Assembly: GCA_963704645.1 (NCBI GenBank)
Contig: OY969926.1
Location: forward strand, 512,001 to 576,000
DNA from: an uncultured bacterium
GTDB lineage: Bacteria; Patescibacteriota; JACMRA01
Length of the DNA: 64,000 nt
Direction: 5' to 3'
Shown here in pieces: positions 26,210 through 36,414 of this stretch (its first letter is position 1; each line of letters starts with the position of its first letter). A model generated the notes under the pieces. The model was not told the DNA's origin. It worked only from the letters and a program-made list of their open reading frames with translations, and searched no databases. A program made the translations under genes and the position numbers.

Positions 26210-28036
26210 ATGCTCTCCCAAATTCCCAATTCCCCACAAACAATAATTGCCATTTATGCCAGTGAAAATATGGGTGTAACCATGGTGTATTTGGGTTGGG
26301 TAGATTCTGTAGAAAATAGTTCAATCTCAACCGAGCAGCAAGCAAGCATTGATTTAAATACAGAAGAAGAATTGTCAGAATTTCAAAATTGGGTTTCTTC
26401 CCAAAGCTCTAAATTATTATTTTTATATGTTAAAACTTTTGCACATCAAATTGGTTTATTTGGTAATTTCCCTAAAAATTGTTTTGATATTTCTTTAGGT
26501 TTAGAATTGGGAAATTTTAATATTTCCAAAACTACCCCGATTGCTATGCAATCACCCCTTACCAAGGGTACTGATGTTGCTAAAGAAGATGCACATCCCG
26601 AGGCTTCTGCTCAGTCCTTTTTTGAGGGGGCATTGCCTTCTAATAATAATTCTAAACCGGAGTATTTAATTCAAACTTATTTGTTTTTGCAGCAAAATTT
26701 GCCTTCCCAAATATTTAAATTGTGGCAGGAAATTGAATCACCTTTAAGTTTTGTTCTAGCTAAAATTGAAAAAGATGGAGCATACATTAACAAGCAATCT
26801 TTGCAAGAAACAGACACACAACTAACTTTAAAAGCCAACCAGTTGCAACAAGAAATATTGCAAAAATTTAATCAAATTTTAGGTAGCAGTGAAGCTGACC
26901 CAACCCAAAAAACTATTAATTTAAATAGTCCTGCTCAATTAGGCCAAGCTTTAAAACAAGGTGGATATTTATTAAAAGAAACAAAAACTGGTAAAATTTC
27001 TACAGATAGAGCGGTGTTGGAAGAGCTTCTTTTAACTGATGAAAATAATTTAATTCAACCCATTTTAGATTACCGCACAGTTGCCAAATTAAGTTCAACT
27101 TATACCCAAACCTTTTTGCAGGTGCTAGATGAAAACAGTAGGATTCACACCCAGTATAACCAGCTAGGTTCGGCTACTGGTAGAATTTCTAGTAACAACC
27201 CTAATTTGCAAAATATTCCAATTCGCAATCCAGAATATGGTCCGTTAATACGTTCTTGTTTTGCAGCTGAAAAAGGAAATAGCTTAATTTGTGCAGATTA
27301 TTCCCAAATAGAATTACGTTTGCTGGCTCATTTTTGCGGGGACGAAGTTTTAACCGAAGCTTTTGCTTTGAACCAAGATATTCACCAAAGAACGGCCTCG
27401 GAAATTTTTGATGTGCCTTTAGTTAGTGTTACTAAACAGCAACGCAGATTGGGTAAAACCTTGAATTTTGCTTTGGTTTACCAACAAGGAAGCTTTGCCA
27501 CAGCAGTACAACTTGGAATTTCCCAGAAAGAAGCAGCAGCATTTATTAACAAGTATTTTGATAAATTTAGTAAGGTAAAACCTTTTATTGAAAGCACAAT
27601 TACAAAAGCTAAAGAAACAGGCTTCGTAGAAACTTTGTTTGGTCGCAGAAGGCATTTTCAGAACTTAAATTCAAGCATGGTAATGTTACGTAAAATAGAC
27701 GAACGGGCAGCATTTAACGCCGTTTTACAAGGTAGCAACGCCGATTTAATTAAAAAAGCCATGGTGCAATTACACCAAATTTTTGAAACAGGGGAAACCT
27801 CCAGCCTGCAAACTTTAAGCAAAGAAGATAAGCAGGTTTTGTCAGGCTCAAAAATACTTAATCAAGCTAAAATGATATTACAAGTACACGATGAATTGAT
27901 TATAGAAGCGCCAACCCAAATTGCTAAACAAGTAGCTAAAATTGTTGAAGAAGTAATGCAATTAAACCAACCCTTAAAAGTTCCAATTTTAGTTGAGGCA
28001 GGAATTGGGGCTAATTGGAGAGATGGGAAGGAGTAG
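26210..28036 (+). CDS. polA: Family A DNA polymerase lacking the 5'-3' exonuclease domain
   Basis: ATGRISSNNPNLQNIP, motif A DYSQIELR, motif B R..GKTLNFALVY, motif C QVHDEL. Confidence 0.93.
   Translation: MLSQIPNSPQTIIAIYASENMGVTMVYLGWVDSVENSSISTEQQASIDLNTEEELSEFQNWVSSQSSKLLFLYVKTFAHQIGLFGNFPKNCFDISLGLELGNFNISKTTPIAMQSPLTKGTDVAKEDAHPEASAQSFFEGALPSNNNSKPEYLIQTYLFLQQNLPSQIFKLWQEIESPLSFVLAKIEKDGAYINKQSLQETDTQLTLKANQLQQEILQKFNQILGSSEADPTQKTINLNSPAQLGQALKQGGYLLKETKTGKISTDRAVLEELLLTDENNLIQPILDYRTVAKLSSTYTQTFLQVLDENSRIHTQYNQLGSATGRISSNNPNLQNIPIRNPEYGPLIRSCFAAEKGNSLICADYSQIELRLLAHFCGDEVLTEAFALNQDIHQRTASEIFDVPLVSVTKQQRRLGKTLNFALVYQQGSFATAVQLGISQKEAAAFINKYFDKFSKVKPFIESTITKAKETGFVETLFGRRRHFQNLNSSMVMLRKIDERAAFNAVLQGSNADLIKKAMVQLHQIFETGETSSLQTLSKEDKQVLSGSKILNQAKMILQVHDELIIEAPTQIAKQVAKIVEEVMQLNQPLKVPILVEAGIGANWRDGKE
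26528..26572 (+). repeat. 45-bp double-hairpin element in frame within polA
   Basis: AAAACTACCCC-GATTGC-TAT-GCAATC-ACCCCTTACC-AAGGGTACT; homologous to 28901..28945. Confidence 0.75.
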
Positions 28037-29871: not shown

Positions 29872-29964
29872 ACGGTTTTATTAAATACAAAGAAAACGCC
29901 CGAAGGCGTAATCAATTTGTTTTATAGTAAATCTTACGTTTGTGGCTCGTAAACTGCTCCACTA

Positions 29965-30390
29965 CTAGGCTTCTACTGTAACTCCCATGCTGCGGCATGT
30001 TCCTTCTACCATTTTCATGGCTTGGTCTACATCGTAGCAGTTTAAATCTTCCATCTTTCTTTCGGCAATGGTTCTTATTTGAGCTTTAGTAATTTTTCCT
30101 ACCTTCTTTCTTAATTGGTCTGAAGCGCCAGAAGTTATACTAATAGCTTGCTTTACTAATTCTGAAACAGCTGGAGTTTTAAGAACGAATTCGAAACTTC
30201 TGTCATCGTATACAGTAATTAAGGCTGGAATGCCACCTACCATGTTGGCGGTTTGAGTGTTAAAATCTTTAACAAACTGCATTAGGTTAATACCTAAAGG
30301 TCCTAATGTTGAACCTACCGGAGGCCCTGCTTGAGCTTTCGCTGCTGGAATTACTATTTTTACAACTGCCTTAATCTTTTTGTTGGCCAT
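29965..30390 (-). CDS. rplK: 50S ribosomal protein L11
   Basis: AGPPVGSTLGPLGINLMQFVKDFN, VYDDRSFEF..KTP, GTCRSMG; true start MANKKIK. Confidence 0.97.
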   Translation of the reverse strand: MANKKIKAVVKIVIPAAKAQAGPPVGSTLGPLGINLMQFVKDFNTQTANMVGGIPALITVYDDRSFEFVLKTPAVSELVKQAISITSGASDQLRKKVGKITKAQIRTIAERKMEDLNCYDVDQAMKMVEGTCRSMGVTVEA

Positions 30391-30437
30391 ATATTTAACA
30401 ATTGAAAGGAAATAGGCCTTAATTGTCAAGAAAAAAG

Positions 30438-31106
30438 CTAGTCTTCAACTGTAAATTCTAGTCTTTTTAGACCTTGGCCAATAGACTTTTGTTTCAAAAT
30501 TACAAATTTACCAATTTCTTTGGAATTACTAATATGCGGTCCTCCACAAAACTCGCGTGAGTAAACTGTGCCTTGGCCATCTTTTAAGGTATAAATACTA
30601 ACAATGTCGCCGTATTTTTCGCCGAACAAACCAATTGCACCAAGTTTCGCAGCCTCTTCTTGTTTCATTTCTAATTTTTCCATCTCCAAATGTCTATCAA
30701 TAATTGCTTGAACCTTGTCTTGGATAGAGTTAATTTCCTCGGTGCTTAAACTATTGGTAAGTGTAAAATCGAATCTGGCTTTTTCGTTGGTTATAGCCGA
30801 ACCTTTTTGTTTAACATCTGTGCCAAAAGTGTCTCGTAAAACTGAGTGTAAAATATGAGTAGAAGTGTGTAACTTCCTTGTTTTTTCTGAATCTTGATCT
30901 AGACCAGATTTAAATTGTCCAGCTGAAGTTGTTTGAGATAGTTTTTGATGTTCAGAAATTAAACTATTTAGCAATTCAGAGTCTAGTTTTAAGCCGTGAC
31001 TTTCTAAAATATCTTCTGAAATTTCAATTGGTACGCCAAAAGTTTGATATAAATCCCAAGTTTTTTCGGCTAGAAATTGTGGAGTAATTTGTTCATTTTT
31101 GTTCAT
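30438..31106 (-). CDS. alaS: Alanyl-tRNA synthetase C-terminal fragment (end of helical region plus editing domain)
   Basis: DLYQTFGVP, HQKLSQTTSAGQFKSGL, HTSTHILH, QKGS, RFDF, EFCGGPH. Confidence 0.88.
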   Translation of the reverse strand: MNKNEQITPQFLAEKTWDLYQTFGVPIEISEDILESHGLKLDSELLNSLISEHQKLSQTTSAGQFKSGLDQDSEKTRKLHTSTHILHSVLRDTFGTDVKQKGSAITNEKARFDFTLTNSLSTEEINSIQDKVQAIIDRHLEMEKLEMKQEEAAKLGAIGLFGEKYGDIVSIYTLKDGQGTVYSREFCGGPHISNSKEIGKFVILKQKSIGQGLKRLEFTVED

Positions 31107-31174
31107 AAATAATTCTTAATAAATCACTAATAATGGTCTAGTTAAATTTCTAAATACTTCTAAATTTTTCCAAA

Positions 31175-32215
31175 TTAAATCTTTAACCCGAAGATTCCTG
31201 CTAAATTCTTAACTGTTTCTAAGTTGCTAACAGTACTGCTAACTCCGTTAAAAATAGAGGAAATAGTTTCCAAGGCTGTTTGAATAATACCAGTTTTTTT
31301 ATCATCTAAATTAGCGTTGTGTTCAGAGTTTTCTGTAATATGGTTAACTGCTTTAATGGCTACTTCCTTTTGAATTTCGGGAATTTCTTGGTTGGTAGTA
31401 ATTAATTCTAAAATTTCAAGCAAATAGCCTTGAATTTGAATAAGTTTATCTTCGCTATCGTCTGTTGGCTTTACCATTTCTACAATTTTTTGCCTAGAAT
31501 TACTAACCATTTCACTATAATTTTGGCCGAAATTCATGTTGCCTGAATTATTAATATTGCTGTTTTGGAAGTTTTGTTGAGTCATACTGCTTGTGTTAAT
31601 GTTGTTTTGCTGGCTAATTTTTTGAGAAATTAAGCTAATATTTTGGTTGGAAAAGTTTTTTATAATTTCCTGAAAATATTGCTTATCTTTTGTTAAAATT
31701 TCAGTTTCGGTCAAGCTGGTTAAAATTTTGTTTTTTAAACTTTTAATTTCCTCTTTCAAAACTTTTGGATCTTCATTCTGACTGGGATCGTTTGCACTAT
31801 TAGAAAGACTGTTCTGCAAACTTTTAATTTCCCGCTTCATTTTTATTAATTTGTGCATAAACTCTTCAGCAATCAAACCTTCCTCTGAGTGTTCAGCAGA
31901 GCTAGATTTTAAGTTGGAAATAATTTTATTTAGCAAAGCTGGCTCGGCAAAAAAACTGATGTATTCTTGGTACTTTTGATCAACTTCATTTTCAGAAAAA
32001 TCTATCGAAACAACCTGAATGTCTAAGCCTTCATTGGTTGATATTAGGTTAATTGCCGCTTCCTTTGTAACTGCCTTATCTTGCCAGGTAAGTTCATTTA
32101 AATAGTATTCAAAAAAAACTAAAAATTGGGTGATATCTATTTTGTATTCACGAATTTCTTGGTCTAATTCAATTGACCTAGTCCAAATTGGATATTCAAA
32201 ATAATTATCGCTCAT
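31175..32215 (-). CDS. Hypothetical coiled-coil protein between the alaS fragments
   Basis: 346-aa ORF with an N/Q-rich linker. Confidence 0.65.
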   Translation of the reverse strand: MSDNYFEYPIWTRSIELDQEIREYKIDITQFLVFFEYYLNELTWQDKAVTKEAAINLISTNEGLDIQVVSIDFSENEVDQKYQEYISFFAEPALLNKIISNLKSSSAEHSEEGLIAEEFMHKLIKMKREIKSLQNSLSNSANDPSQNEDPKVLKEEIKSLKNKILTSLTETEILTKDKQYFQEIIKNFSNQNISLISQKISQQNNINTSSMTQQNFQNSNINNSGNMNFGQNYSEMVSNSRQKIVEMVKPTDDSEDKLIQIQGYLLEILELITTNQEIPEIQKEVAIKAVNHITENSEHNANLDDKKTGIIQTALETISSIFNGVSSTVSNLETVKNLAGIFGLKI

Positions 32216-32226
32216 CTAATATTATT

Positions 32227-33081
32227 TTAGGGCAAAAATATAATATAGTAAAGAATTAAACAGGCTAGCATTACTACCGGAGTGAAAATAGTGACGTATT
32301 TATATCTAGAATTTACTAATTTGGAAGAAATTAAATATTTCTGTGTATCTTGGTCTTCCTCCTTTTTGTCTCCAAACTTATCTACAATTTGCCAAGTATC
32401 GTTTTTGTTACTACTTATAATTTTCTTAAGTAGTTCTGGTTGGTTAATCCAAACTAGGTTAGGGTACTTTCTTAGCCAAAAACCAATAATTTGAGTACAT
32501 AAACTAATTCCTGCATAAATTAACACACCTCTTAACAAGCTATTTACCCAAAGTTTAGCCCAGCTTTCTTCTACAAAAATAGACATGAATACCAAACCAA
32601 AAATTACCAAGGAAGAAATATTAATTAATTTATATAAACTATTGTATATTGTGTATAATTTAGTGTTGCTAAATTTTGTGGCTTCAATTACTTCTTCAGC
32701 TAAATTTTGAACATTGTTACCAGTAGCAATATTTCTATACATTTCTTCTATACTTTTATAATCGCTTAATTTGGTTAAAACCAAAGTTTTTTTCTTTGGG
32801 AAATTTTCGTAAATTAAAGTGTATTTCGGGTTTACAGCATCGGTAATTTCCATTCGAATTAGCTTGTTTTCTGAACTAATTTTGGTAAAATATTCTTTCC
32901 AGTCTTCAGTCTTTTTAACTTTTAAAATATTTTTTTCCAGTTTTTTTCCAGAAAATTTAACGGTTACATATACATCTTCAGAAAATTTAGATTTTGCCAG
33001 CTTTGCCAGCTTTTCAGTATTTATAAAACCAAATTGTTTGGCCAATATGCTGCCCGAAGTTAGTAATGTTAAAATATTCAT
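32227..33081 (-). CDS. Hypothetical membrane protein between the alaS fragments
   Basis: 284-aa ORF with about 3 C-terminal TM segments. Confidence 0.65.
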   Translation of the reverse strand: MNILTLLTSGSILAKQFGFINTEKLAKLAKSKFSEDVYVTVKFSGKKLEKNILKVKKTEDWKEYFTKISSENKLIRMEITDAVNPKYTLIYENFPKKKTLVLTKLSDYKSIEEMYRNIATGNNVQNLAEEVIEATKFSNTKLYTIYNSLYKLINISSLVIFGLVFMSIFVEESWAKLWVNSLLRGVLIYAGISLCTQIIGFWLRKYPNLVWINQPELLKKIISSNKNDTWQIVDKFGDKKEEDQDTQKYLISSKLVNSRYKYVTIFTPVVMLACLILYYIIFLP

Positions 33082-33103
33082 AAATGTAAGCTGAAATGTT
33101 AAA

Positions 33104-33442
33104 CTAAGCTAAAATTTTTGACCATTGTTTTTGTCCAACTTCAATGGCCTTTTGGTATTTTTGGGCTTCTGTAATTAATGTGGAAACAATTGTTTCTTTA
33201 TTTTCTTCTATTTCTGGATAAACACCACTGTAAATATTAACAACAGATTGAACCAGTTCTTCAAAATATGCTGGCTGACTTATATCTATTTTTAGTTTTA
33301 AACTTGCTGAAAGTGATCTTCTAATAAGCCTTCTTAATACGTAACCACGCTGTTTACCACTTGGTAGAACACCATCGGCAATAATAAAACAACTAGTTCT
33401 AATGTGATCAGCTATAATATCTTGAGGTAAAATGTTGGTCAT
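33104..33442 (-). CDS. alaS: Alanyl-tRNA synthetase helical tRNA-recognition fragment
   Basis: IIADHIRTSCFIIADGVLPS..RGYVLRRLIRR...YPEI; ATG at 33442. Confidence 0.88.
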   Translation of the reverse strand: MTNILPQDIIADHIRTSCFIIADGVLPSGKQRGYVLRRLIRRSLSASLKLKIDISQPAYFEELVQSVVNIYSGVYPEIEENKETIVSTLITEAQKYQKAIEVGQKQWSKILA

Positions 33443-33735
33443 ACTGCTTATATTAGGCAAGAATTATTTAGCAAATTTAAAAAACTTCTTAACCATTCTT
33501 CTTATTTTTGAATATAAAGATTGGTTTTTTCTGAAATTGTTATAGATTTTTTTAAACATAGAATGAAATTGGTTGGCCTAATAACTTTGGTCAAGTTAAT
33601 TCACCTTTGAAATTTAAATTATTTTTTTGGAACCTGACCATCACTCCCTCTTACTATTGGTGTAAGAGAAAGCTTTGCAATCTCTTTGAGTGAATGCTAG
33701 ACCAATTAAGAACTAACGGTTATAATAAGGTTATC

Positions 33736-35325: not shown

Positions 35326-36414
35326 ATGTCATCCGATAACAACAACTCTAAAAACAATTCAATAGTTATTGCACTTGGTGTAATTGCTGTTGTAGCCATT
35401 GCTGGCACAGCCATTTATTTTGGCACAATGAAAAAAGATGATAACAAAGACAATAAAATGTCTAGTGACACATCCATGACCAAAGATGAAAAGACAGTAT
35501 CTGTTGGTGGAGCTGCAATGTTTGCTAACAAGGATATTATTTCCAACGTAGTAAACGCTCCTAATTTAACAACTCTAGTTGCCGCTGTTAAAGCTGCTGA
35601 CTTAGTTGCTACATTACAAGGACCAGGACCTTTCACAGTATTCGGACCAGATAACGCTGCTTTTGCAAAATTACCTGCTGGAACTGTAGAAACTCTTGTT
35701 AAACCAGAAAACAAAGCTACTTTAACTAACATTTTAACTTATCACGTAGTAGCTGGAAAGTTACTAAGTACCGATCTAAAAGATGGTCAAAAGTTAAAGA
35801 CTGTTCAAGGACAAGAATTAACAATTAAAAAGAGTGGTAATTCCGTAATGATTATGGATAACTCTGGAAACACTTCAAACGTAACTACTGCTGATGTTTT
35901 ACAAAGCAACGGTGTAGCTCACGTTATTGACACTGTCTTAATTCCAGCTGCCGAAACTAAAGTAGGTGGAGCTGCAATGTTTGCTAACAAGGATATTATT
36001 TCCAACGTAGTAAACGCTCCTAATTTAACAACTCTAGTTGCCGCTGTTAAAGCTGCTGACTTAGTTGCTACATTACAAGGACCAGGACCTTTCACAGTAT
36101 TCGGACCAGATAACGCTGCTTTTGCAAAATTACCTGCTGGAACTGTAGAAACTCTTGTTAAACCAGAAAACAAAGCTACTTTAACAAAAATCTTAACTTA
36201 TCATGCTGTTTCAGGAAAATTCCTAGCTGCAGATTTGAAAGATGGTCAAAAGTTAAAGACTGTTCAAGGACAAGAATTAACAGTTAGAAAAACTGCTAGC
36301 TCAACTCAACTTATTGATGCTTCAGGATTTACTTCCACAATAATCACTGCTGATGTTTTACAAAGCAACGGTGTAGCTCACGTTATTGACACTGTCTTAA
36401 CTCCAAAAGCTTAA
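35326..36414 (+). CDS. Membrane-anchored protein with two fasciclin (FAS1) domains
   Basis: Two copies of TLVAAVKAADLV.TLQGPGPFTVF.P.NAAF...ILTYH...SNGVAHVIDTVL. Confidence 0.93.
   Translation: MSSDNNNSKNNSIVIALGVIAVVAIAGTAIYFGTMKKDDNKDNKMSSDTSMTKDEKTVSVGGAAMFANKDIISNVVNAPNLTTLVAAVKAADLVATLQGPGPFTVFGPDNAAFAKLPAGTVETLVKPENKATLTNILTYHVVAGKLLSTDLKDGQKLKTVQGQELTIKKSGNSVMIMDNSGNTSNVTTADVLQSNGVAHVIDTVLIPAAETKVGGAAMFANKDIISNVVNAPNLTTLVAAVKAADLVATLQGPGPFTVFGPDNAAFAKLPAGTVETLVKPENKATLTKILTYHAVSGKFLAADLKDGQKLKTVQGQELTVRKTASSTQLIDASGFTSTIITADVLQSNGVAHVIDTVLTPKA

What the first reader, a model, noticed from the sequence alone, without database searches (positions are those of the whole stretch)
30438..33442. 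Alanyl-tRNA synthetase split into separate genes with two unrelated ORFs between the pieces
Seen: 33104..33442 encodes only the IIADH...RGYVLRRLIRR helical segment and stops at KQWSKILA. 30438..31106 resumes about where a contiguous AlaRS would (..DLYQTFG..) and includes an intact editing site (HxxxH, CGGPH). Each piece has its own ATG and stop, and two full ORFs (~2 kb) lie between them. The catalytic N-terminal domain is absent from the window, implying at least three pieces. The two residues aligned to the G3:U70 readers (E. coli N303 in PSN, D400 in LYD) read PSG and LYQ and lie on different chains. Known: a two-chain AlaRS exists in Nanoarchaeum equitans. Inference: a three-chain bacterial AlaRS, possibly with altered tRNA identity.
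Basis: partly seen in the sequence, partly recalled or inferred. Interest (0 to 1): 0.78.

Follow-up and report, generated by a model that had tools for sequence, protein, structure and literature searches.

The report
Three-gene alanyl-tRNA synthetase in bacteria
This small-genome bacterium and its whole class encode the essential enzyme alanyl-tRNA synthetase as two or three separate, well-conserved genes, which is a new way of building an enzyme previously thought almost always to be a single chain.

Summary
On the minus strand, window 33104..33442 encodes a 112-aa helical piece of AlaRS (M). [quoted passage not shown] Two orphan ORFs lie between them. The missing catalytic piece (N, 303 aa) lies 563,848 bp away in the same 1.27-Mb single-contig genome, and there is no full-length alaS.

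The three pieces tile a roughly 600-aa one-piece AlaRS without overlap. They evolve at dN/dS of about 0.08-0.10, like rplK.

In the 27 species genomes of this class, 26 have the N|rest split and 10 also have the M|C split. Public metagenomes hold many further stand-alone pieces. A complex model supports assembly, with a score of 0.86 against a best control of 0.37.

The suggestion of altered tRNA identity is not supported. All tRNA-Ala genes examined keep G3:U70 and A73. However, the Asn "reader" residue is lost throughout the split clade.

The M|C break lies in the same region as the Nanoarchaeota alpha|beta split. The N|M break appears to be new. Six literature searches found no description of this arrangement.

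Verdict: a real and probably functional heterotrimeric bacterial AlaRS, and a new variant of a known kind.

The parts
33104..33442 (-). AlaRS piece M: 112 aa, the helical first half of the tRNA-recognition domain (IIADH...RGYVLRRLIRR). It carries Gly at the conserved Asn (U70-reader) position.
   Evidence: ORF. PF01411 positions 274-371, E 1.8e-27. Best solved relatives are bacterial AlaRS, including E. coli 3hxu residues 281-374. The ATG start is shared with G001.
33463..33492 (-). Promoter-like site just upstream of piece M. It lies in the 230-bp gap to the divergent gene at 33694.
   Evidence: Consensus scan, 9 of 12 matches. The number of such sites in the region is no higher than in shuffles, so this is weak evidence.
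32227..33081 (-). Intervening ORF of 284 aa. It is a genus-specific orphan with a hydrophobic C-terminal half.
   Evidence: No Pfam or PHROGs family. Found in 2 of 27 class genomes, both in genus g1. It is 41% identical to the G001 copy, dN/dS 0.30.
31175..32215 (-). Intervening ORF of 346 aa. It is a genus-specific orphan, low-complexity and rich in Asn, Ser and Gln.
   Evidence: No Pfam or PHROGs family. The Atlas best score was 0.83, against unnamed clusters only. Found in 2 of 27 class genomes. dN/dS 0.17.
30438..31106 (-). AlaRS piece C: 222 aa, the second half of the tRNA-recognition domain (WDLYQTFGVP, with Gln at the Asp/G3-reader position) plus an editing domain with HxxxH and CxxxH.
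   Evidence: PF01411 positions 381-454 and tRNA_SAD. Aligned to A. fulgidus AlaRS 446-507 and 585-735. H80, H84, C187 and H191 are invariant. It is the only tRNA_SAD match in the genome.
29965..30429 (-). rplK (ribosomal protein L11), lying 8 nt after piece C on the same strand.
   Evidence: Pfam Ribosomal_L11 and L11_N. The adjacency is conserved in G001 only.
29896..29909 (-). Terminator-like hairpin after rplK. It is the only such site on the minus strand between 34000 and 29400.
   Evidence: Consensus scan. That M, orf284, orf346, C and rplK are co-transcribed is an inference from this scan and from intergenic gaps of 8 to 68 nt.

Best explanation
The organism makes its only alanyl-tRNA synthetase from three separately translated polypeptides. 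N is the class II catalytic core plus the first helix of the next domain, and its gene lies 564 kb away between a cyclophilin gene and an RNase HII gene. M is the helical first half of the tRNA-recognition domain. C is the second half of that domain plus the editing domain. The three chains assemble non-covalently into the usual AlaRS fold. The C-terminal helix of N packs into the helical bundle of M, and the first ~40 residues of C pack onto M. The assembled enzyme charges canonical G3:U70 tRNA-Ala and edits mischarged tRNA. Shown here: the three genes, their tiling, their conservation, the absence of any other alaS, and the canonical tRNA-Ala. Inferred: assembly, activity and co-transcription. 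The N|rest fission is ancestral to the class. The M|C fission is a later event at a permissive loop that changed state at least three times.
For: The PF01411 search of the whole genome gives exactly three matches, at profile positions 2-259, 273-375 and 379-454. tblastn with two one-piece AlaRS proteins gives exactly three collinear hits covering 1-256, 282-388 and 388-595 of a 599-aa enzyme. Between G000 and G001, dN/dS is 0.084 for N and 0.096 for C, against 0.089 for rplK. For M, dN is 0.163 and dS is saturated. All invariant columns are kept, including motif residues in N (R68, D266, G268, G270, E272, R273), D12, H13, Y34, R37 and R41 in M, and the zinc and editing residues in C. In the class census, 26 of 27 genomes are split at N|M and 10 of 27 also at M|C. 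In G037 the M and C genes are adjacent, separated by a 44-nt spacer and in different frames. In six other genera (G003, G007/G032, G009, G010, G012, G014) M and C lie on different contigs. In the 5.8-billion protein set there are 69 further clusters of stand-alone M pieces (54-83% identical, 104-180 aa). All 120 listed clusters of N pieces are 293-350 aa. The complex model scored ipSAE 0.86 (three runs: 0.85, 0.86, 0.87) against a best control of 0.37. Partner pLDDT was at least 87 and contact agreement at least 87%. That mark was reached by 58 of 80 solved complexes and 2 of 110 mismatched pairs. tRNA-Ala is canonical. IleRS, LeuRS, ValRS and MetRS are each in one open frame, so the assembly does not generally fragment genes.
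Against: There is no biochemical, proteomic or transcript evidence. The complex model may pass from memory of solved one-chain AlaRS structures, so it shows likeness rather than binding (the caveat printed). Both canonical G3:U70 reader residues are replaced (Gly and Gln), so efficiency or mode of recognition could differ. One class genome (G006) has a one-piece AlaRS. Marker-based completeness of G000 is 87% even though it is a single contig.
Confidence: 0.85

Rival explanations
1. The pieces do not form one stable enzyme. N, or N plus M, does the charging on its own. C acts as a free-standing trans-editing and specificity factor, similar to AlaX or to the N. equitans beta subunit added in trans.
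For: C holds the only AlaRS/ThrRS-type editing domain in the genome. Its best solved matches include free-standing AlaX-like proteins 2e1b and 9iuw. N. equitans alpha alone charges weakly and without G:U specificity (PMC11392972 and PMC10036535, passages). In most three-piece genomes the genes are dispersed.
Against: C also carries the second half of the tRNA-recognition domain (PF01411 381-454), with a strongly conserved WDLYQ(T/S)xGVP block. E. coli 368N, which lacks that part, cannot charge tRNA (PMC11392972 passages). The model places C residues 7-39 and 54 against M with low expected error.
Confidence: 0.09
2. The pieces are decaying remnants of alaS. Ala-tRNA would then be supplied another way, for example by a host.
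For: The genome is small (1.27 Mb) and the lineage is probably host-dependent; that it belongs to Patescibacteria is an inference from the NCBI name on hit P0143. NCBI labels such pieces 'alanine--tRNA ligase-related protein'.
Against: dN/dS is about 0.08-0.10, equal to rplK. Identity across genera is 55-86%. All invariant catalytic and editing residues are kept. The same breakpoints occur in 26 of 27 genomes. tRNA-Ala genes are retained with G3:U70.
Confidence: 0.02
3. The chains are joined after transcription or translation, by split inteins, trans-splicing introns or read-through, to give a normal single chain.
For: Split genes joined by inteins are known for other enzymes (from general knowledge, not tested here).
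Against: The three ORFs sum to 637-643 aa, against 599-647 aa for one-piece relatives, which leaves no room for intein halves. Pfam finds no Hint or intein domain. Rfam finds nothing in 10,443 bases around all three genes at E up to 0.1. In G037, M and C are in different frames with a TAA stop between them.
Confidence: 0.02
4. The split is an assembly or sequencing artefact.
For: Metagenome-derived genomes can contain frameshifts and chimeras.
Against: The same breaks occur in 26 independently assembled genomes and in dozens of metagenome contigs up to 1.16 Mb long. Each piece has its own start and stop. N lies 564 kb from M.
Confidence: 0.01

Closest known systems
Split AlaRS of Nanoarchaeum equitans and other Nanoarchaeota (AlaRS-alpha and AlaRS-beta)
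   Same: In both cases an essential AlaRS is encoded by separate, distant genes and works as a non-covalent complex. The alpha subunit corresponds almost entirely to E. coli 368N (PMC11392972 passages). The Nanoarchaeota break therefore lies in the same region as the M|C break here, which falls at about E. coli 382-387 by extrapolating the 3hxu alignment. The Asp reader is also replaced in N. equitans (by Ile), yet G3:U70 specificity is kept.
   Different: The case here is bacterial, with bacterial enzymes as its best solved relatives. It has three chains rather than two. It has an additional break between the catalytic core and the recognition domain, at about E. coli 268-278. It has no C-Ala domain. 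The Asn reader is lost here, whereas N. equitans keeps it. The N|rest split is found in 26 of 27 species of the class, with the second break variable. N. equitans sequences were not aligned here.
One-piece short AlaRS (~590-650 aa, no C-Ala) of other Patescibacteria, DPANN archaea and some other bacteria
   Same: The domain content is the same, and identity to the pieces is 35-47%. These are the evident ancestors of the split form.
   Different: They are a single ORF in 59 of 65 loci from the genome-contig scan and in all 11 genomes from other families of the same phylum. Asn is kept in 11 of 12.
AlaX free-standing editing proteins
   Same: Piece C ends in an AlaX-like editing core with HxxxH and CxxxH. 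Its solved matches include 2e1b and 9iuw.
   Different: Piece C additionally carries the second half of the tRNA-recognition domain (PF01411 381-454). It is also orthologous to the C-terminal part of the fused M+C genes of sister genera.
Naturally occurring mini-AlaRS (PMC10036535)
   Same: Both are departures from the 'prototype' AlaRS architecture that still use G3:U70 (abstract and passages).
   Different: [quoted passage not shown] Here the editing domain is kept and the chain is cut twice.

Membership tests
Alanyl-tRNA synthetase (class IIc, PF01411 + tRNA_SAD) | Class II catalytic core with motifs 1-3 | tested here: met
   Piece N matches PF01411 positions 2-259, E 1.3e-72. There are 32 invariant columns across 37 sequences, including the DxGxGxER block.
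Alanyl-tRNA synthetase (class IIc, PF01411 + tRNA_SAD) | tRNA-recognition domain following the core | tested here: met
   PF01411 positions 274-371 lie on M and 381-454 on C. The domain is therefore present but divided between two chains.
Alanyl-tRNA synthetase (class IIc, PF01411 + tRNA_SAD) | Editing domain with HxxxH and CxxxH | tested here: met
   tRNA_SAD E 7.7e-13. H80, H84, C187 and H191 are invariant.
Alanyl-tRNA synthetase (class IIc, PF01411 + tRNA_SAD) | Single polypeptide 'prototype' architecture including C-Ala | tested here: not met
   There are three ORFs. No C-Ala is attached. The only DHHA1 match in the genome lies in an unrelated 387-aa frame and was not followed. One-piece relatives in the phylum also end at the editing domain.
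Alanyl-tRNA synthetase (class IIc, PF01411 + tRNA_SAD) | Cognate tRNA-Ala with G3:U70 | tested here: met
   Both tRNA-Ala genes of G000 have it, and none of the other 39 tRNAs does. It is present in 19 of 19 tRNA-Ala genes in 14 class genomes.
Alanyl-tRNA synthetase (class IIc, PF01411 + tRNA_SAD) | Asn and Asp readers of G3:U70 (E. coli N303 and D400) | tested here: not met
   Gly29 of M and Gln21 of C occupy these positions. Asn is absent in 25 of 25 split rows (G 21, A 2, P 2). Gln is present in 24 of 24 split rows.
Alanyl-tRNA synthetase (class IIc, PF01411 + tRNA_SAD) | Alanylation of tRNA-Ala | not testable with these tools
   This needs an aminoacylation assay.
Nanoarchaeota-type split AlaRS (alpha/beta) | Two subunits, with the break near E. 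coli residue 368 | tested here: inconclusive
   The M|C break lies about 15-20 residues downstream of E. coli 368 by extrapolation and the passage. N. equitans sequences were not aligned. There are three chains here, not two.
Nanoarchaeota-type split AlaRS (alpha/beta) | Catalytic core and first half of the recognition domain on one chain (alpha) | tested here: not met
   Here the core (N) and that half-domain (M) are separate genes 563,848 bp apart.
AlaX trans-editing proteins | Editing domain alone, with no aminoacylation or recognition part | tested here: not met
   Piece C carries PF01411 positions 381-454 in front of the editing core.
Split-intein-joined proteins | Hint/intein halves at the broken ends | tested here: not met
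   Pfam finds no such domain. The pieces tile the one-piece enzyme with only short tails.

The most novel reading that the evidence does not exclude
In this bacterial class, AlaRS is an obligate heterotrimer whose two classical G3:U70 reader positions are both replaced (Asn to Gly on M, Asp to Gln on C) and sit on different subunits. G3:U70 would then be read by a different set of contacts. The active enzyme may only be completed when M and C close on the acceptor stem, so that subunit assembly itself becomes part of tRNA selection. The M|C fission would have arisen repeatedly, at the same loop that was broken independently in Nanoarchaeota.
Probability: 0.2. Interest if true: 0.85.

Novelty: new variant of a known kind. 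Interest (0 to 1): 0.7.

Why it matters
A 2023 paper describes AlaRS as the only aaRS that keeps a prototype structure throughout biology, with the two-piece Nanoarchaeum enzyme as the exception (PMC10036535, passage). This finding is a bacterial, class-wide case. The class II catalytic core stands alone as a 300-aa protein, and the tRNA-recognition domain is itself cut in two.

Sister genera carry two-piece and three-piece forms, and related families carry one-piece forms. Together they form a natural series for testing three questions: how modular AlaRS really is, which contacts hold the domains together, and how G3:U70 is read when the Asn reader is missing.

There is also a practical consequence. 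AlaRS (COG0013) is used as a phylogenetic marker with split genes excluded (PMC11740963, passage), so this class would be missed or mis-scored. NCBI names the pieces 'alanine--tRNA ligase-related protein'.

Tried and rejected
Pseudogene decay, intein or RNA joining, and misassembly were considered and rejected. The reasons are given under the rival explanations.

Altered tRNA identity was rejected on the tRNA evidence.

The intervening ORFs were tested as possible AlaRS partners or as a mobile element. They match no Pfam or PHROGs family. The Atlas returned only unnamed clusters, best score 0.83. They occur in only 2 of 27 class genomes. They were therefore rejected as general partners, and their function remains unknown.

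A fourth, C-Ala piece was considered. The only DHHA1 match lies in a 387-aa frame 13 kb outside the window. It was not followed, because one-piece relatives also lack C-Ala.

PolA was tried as an independent species marker but matched in only 13 of 27 genomes at E 1e-40. It was dropped in favour of RpoB.

Monophyly of the three-piece forms is only marginally rejected by the AU test on the AlaRS tree (p 0.037). The number of fission events therefore remains open. The RpoB tree forces at least three changes of state.

For the look-up of sequencing runs, no RNA holder is listed. Two DNA runs from one study hold 0.05-0.06 of the sampled words. Read laying was not used, so there is no read-level or expression evidence either way.

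On print status, searches listed no paper that describes a bacterial split AlaRS. I read passages only of PMC11392972, PMC10036535, PMC6349945, PMC11740963 and bioRxiv 10.64898/2026.05.13.725050. All other papers were seen only as search listings. Supplements are closed, and the N. equitans alignment in Fig. S1 of PMC11392972 could refine the comparison of break points. Subscription journals are not covered by the library.

The Mid1/Mid2 subdomain names, the AlaX classes and the FAS1 label are recalled and come from no call.
Full report
OBSERVATION. The window is G000:C1:512001-576000 of a 1,272,640-bp single-contig genome with about 31% G+C. One search lists five ORFs in a row on the minus strand: 33104..33460 (118 aa from TTG), 32227..33081 (284 aa), 31175..32215 (346 aa), 30438..31106 (222 aa) and 29965..30429. 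The ATG at 33442 in the first ORF gives 112 aa, and the congener G001 starts at the same place. In Pfam, the first ORF matches PF01411 positions 274-371 of 552 (E 1.8e-27). The 222-aa ORF matches PF01411 positions 381-454 (E 1e-7) and tRNA_SAD (E 7.7e-13). The last ORF is ribosomal protein L11. The two ORFs in the middle match no family.

THE THIRD PIECE, AND NO WHOLE GENE. A PF01411 search of the whole genome gives exactly three matches. Two are the pieces above. The third covers positions 2-259 (E 1.3e-72) at G000:C1:1109290-1110201, minus strand. It is a 303-aa ORF (piece N) lying between a cyclophilin-type isomerase gene and an RNase HII gene. It is 563,848 bp from piece M. tblastn with two one-piece AlaRS proteins from the same phylum finds only these three places. 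The hits are collinear and cover residues 1-256, 282-388 and 388-595 of a 599-aa enzyme. The pieces sum to 637-643 aa, while one-piece relatives are 599-647 aa. They therefore tile the enzyme with no overlap and no surplus. IleRS, LeuRS, ValRS and MetRS each lie in one open frame, so the genome is not generally fragmented.

RELATIVES. The class that holds this genome consists of one order, two families, 19 genera and 27 species genomes.
- One genome (G006) has a one-piece gene.
- Sixteen genomes have two pieces: N of about 300 aa, plus a fused M+C of about 330-350 aa.
- Ten genomes (G000, G001, G003, G007, G032, G009, G010, G012, G014, G037) have three pieces.
- All 11 genomes sampled from 11 other families of the same phylum have one gene of 599-633 aa by my ORF calls.

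The N|M break falls in the same variable loop in all 19 split genomes aligned. The M|C break falls in one loop in all eight three-piece genomes aligned there, and G037 and G032 fit the same pattern.

The position of M relative to C differs among the three-piece genomes. In G037 they are adjacent, separated by a TAA stop and a 44-nt A+T-rich spacer, and they are in different frames. In G000 and G001 two ORFs lie between them. In the other six genera they are on different contigs.

Public protein collections add many further cases. Beyond the window's own M piece there are 69 more 90%-identity clusters of stand-alone M pieces. They are 54-83% identical and 104-180 aa long, and by my reading of the table about 25 of them sit on contigs longer than 10 kb, the longest being 1.16 Mb. 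All 120 listed clusters of N pieces are 293-350 aa, at least 59% identical and cover at least 96% of the query. NCBI names two of them 'alanine--tRNA ligase-related protein', one from a 'Patescibacteria group bacterium'. That name is my only tool-based ground for naming the phylum.

The genome-contig scan returned 65 loci. Five are split, and all five belong to this class. Fifty-nine carry M in one ORF together with N and/or C; some of those ORFs are cut by contig ends, and one complete ORF (L115) lacks the editing domain. One Woesearchaeota locus (L118) shows two overlapping ORFs.

SELECTION AND INTEGRITY. Between G000 and G001, dN/dS is 0.084 for N and 0.096 for C, against 0.089 for rplK. 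The two intervening ORFs give 0.30 and 0.17. For M, dN is 0.163 and dS is saturated; dS is above 0.9 for every gene, so these ratios are rough. Across genera the pieces are 51-86% identical. In alignments with one-piece enzymes, every invariant column is kept in the pieces. These include 32 columns in N, among them the DxGxGxER block. They also include D12, H13, P27, Y34, R37, R41 and E92 in M, and H80, H84, C187 and H191 in C. These are working genes, not remnants.

ANATOMY AND ASSEMBLY. The first break comes one helix after the catalytic core. N ends with the helix that, in the model, packs into M. A three-chain model was built from my own alignments, with M as the scored partner. It gave ipSAE 0.86 (runs 0.85, 0.86, 0.87) against a best control of 0.37. 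Partner pLDDT was at least 87 and contact agreement at least 87%. That mark was reached by 58 of 80 solved complexes and 2 of 110 mismatched pairs. Confident contacts involve N residues 65-83 and 283-303, M residues 4-16 and 59-70, and C residues 7-39 and 54. One-chain AlaRS structures are solved, so this pass may come from memory. It shows that the pieces still fit the AlaRS fold, not that they bind. There are no intein halves and no Rfam element within 10,443 bases around the three genes.

tRNA IDENTITY. Aragorn finds 41 tRNA genes in G000. The two tRNA-Ala genes (GGC and UGC anticodons) have G1:C72, G2:C71, G3:U70 and A73, and no other tRNA has G:U at position 3:70. In 14 genomes of the class, all 19 tRNA-Ala genes recovered have G3:U70 and A73.

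On the enzyme side, the Asn position (E. coli N303) is Gly in G000. It is never Asn in the 25 split rows examined (G 21, A 2, P 2; the partial G035 gene was left out). It is Asn in 11 of 12 one-piece rows. The Asp position aligns with A. fulgidus D450. It is Gln in 24 of 24 split rows (the partial G003 C piece and the partial G035 gene were left out). Among the 12 one-piece rows it is Gln 5, Glu 2, Asp 2, Ser 2 and Ala 1.

The Gln is therefore a feature of the phylum, while loss of the Asn is specific to the split clade. N. equitans has Ile at the Asp position, yet its alpha+beta enzyme is G3:U70-specific (PMC11392972, passages). I conclude that tRNA identity is unchanged, but the way U70 is read may differ.

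THE TWO ORFs BETWEEN M AND C. They occur only in genus g1, which is 2 of 27 genomes. They diverge much faster than their neighbours (41% and 54% identity). They match nothing in Pfam, PHROGs or the Atlas. The gaps between the five genes are 8-68 nt. The only terminator-like site on that strand follows rplK, and a promoter-like site precedes M, although such consensus matches are no more frequent here than in shuffled sequence. I read the two ORFs as lineage-specific genes inserted between once-adjacent M and C genes, probably co-transcribed with them. They are not AlaRS subunits.

HISTORY. In an AlaRS tree of 38 rows, the 26 split enzymes form one side of a branch with SH-aLRT 100. G006 falls among the one-piece enzymes of other families. 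On that tree the three-piece state needs 4 changes, of which starred branches force at least 2. Holding the ten three-piece rows together costs 49.8 log-likelihood units (p-AU 0.037).

An independent RpoB tree was built from 26 genomes and 983 columns; G004 has no match, and the G015 and G016 genes are partial. It also needs 4 changes, of which starred branches force at least 3. G037 (three pieces) is sister to G002 (two pieces) with support 99. With G019 as outgroup, G006 branches at the base of family f1. All of these are 'quick' trees.

The N|M fission therefore happened once, at or near the base of the class. The M|C state changed several times. Whether by repeated fission or by re-fusion is not settled. 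A short motif at the start of C (L-T/N/D-P-x-F/W-L-A) is shared by the three-piece forms and remains unexplained. G006's one-piece gene sits on a 3.5-kb contig, so transfer or binning error cannot be told apart.

COMPARISON WITH WHAT IS KNOWN. The known precedent is the two-subunit AlaRS of Nanoarchaeota. Its alpha subunit corresponds almost entirely to E. coli 368N, and beta carries the rest (PMC11392972 and PMC10036535, passages). By the E. coli alignment, in which M residues 14-110 of the 118-aa form align with 3hxu residues 281-374, M ends near E. coli 382. The M|C break therefore lies in the same inter-subdomain region as the Nanoarchaeota break, within about 15-20 residues. The exact residue was not compared.

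I did not find the N|M break, at about E. coli 268-278, described anywhere. Searches listed no paper on a bacterial split AlaRS. The library lacks most subscription journals, and supplements were closed.

CAVEATS. There is no expression or biochemical evidence. The complex model is supportive only. dS is saturated. The trees are quick searches on single genes.

Noticed in passing
L026 780..3704 (G012:C72, the N piece of a three-piece relative): The catalytic-core ORF is 974 aa with no stop codon. About 660 aa are inserted in frame in a surface loop (between G000 N residues ~161 and ~172). The insert carries Guanylate_kin (E 3.4e-45), Ham1p_like and Ser_hydrolase domains. It could be a real multi-enzyme insertion or an assembly chimera; this was not resolved.
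   Followed up: partly
L015 (G006:C27, 3.5-kb contig): This is the only one-piece AlaRS in the class. It groups with enzymes of other families, whereas G006's RpoB branches at the base of family f1. Its G+C of 0.356 does not differ from other G006 loci. Transfer, ancestral retention and binning error were not separated.
   Followed up: partly
L058 1630..2669 (G037:C13): M and C are adjacent, with a 44-nt A+T-rich spacer, and are in different frames. Its sister G002 has them fused. The two genomes share only 65-68% amino-acid identity, so this is not a recent event.
   Followed up: yes
window 26210..28036 (+): The DNA polymerase I-like ORF is only 608 aa and, from its translation, appears to lack a 5'-3' exonuclease part. 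Relatives show open frames of 331-897 aa, and the query matched in only 13 of 27 class genomes at E 1e-40. No Pfam scan was run on it.
   Followed up: no
window 35326..36414 (+): This 362-aa secreted-looking protein consists of two nearly identical halves (the repeated GGAAMFANKDIISNVVNAPNLTTLVAAVKAADLV... block is visible). It is fasciclin-like by recall and was not scanned.
   Followed up: no
G000 whole genome: The C piece is the only tRNA_SAD match in the genome, so ThrRS apparently lacks that editing-associated domain and there is no separate AlaX. All 41 tRNA genes encode their CCA end.
   Followed up: no
G013:C4:85563-86495, G005:C44:15073-15522, G036:C44:3104-3502, G005:C35:60049-60258: Some relatives have additional weak PF01411 matches (E 2.4e-12 to 1.2e-6) in frames of 282-373 aa. 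These may be AlaRS-like paralogues. None is present in G000.
   Followed up: no
L118 (Woesearchaeota MAG contig) and L115 (Paceibacterota MAG contig): In L118, AlaRS appears as two overlapping ORFs (232 aa N part, 451 aa M+C part), which could be a frameshift or another split. L115 has a complete 473-aa ORF with N and M parts but no editing domain, resembling a mini-AlaRS.
   Followed up: no
record titles: NCBI titles for members of this one class are inconsistent: 'Bdellovibrionales bacterium', 'bacterium', 'Candidatus Saccharibacteria' and 'Candidatus Paceibacterota'. The lineage therefore has no stable public name.
   Followed up: no
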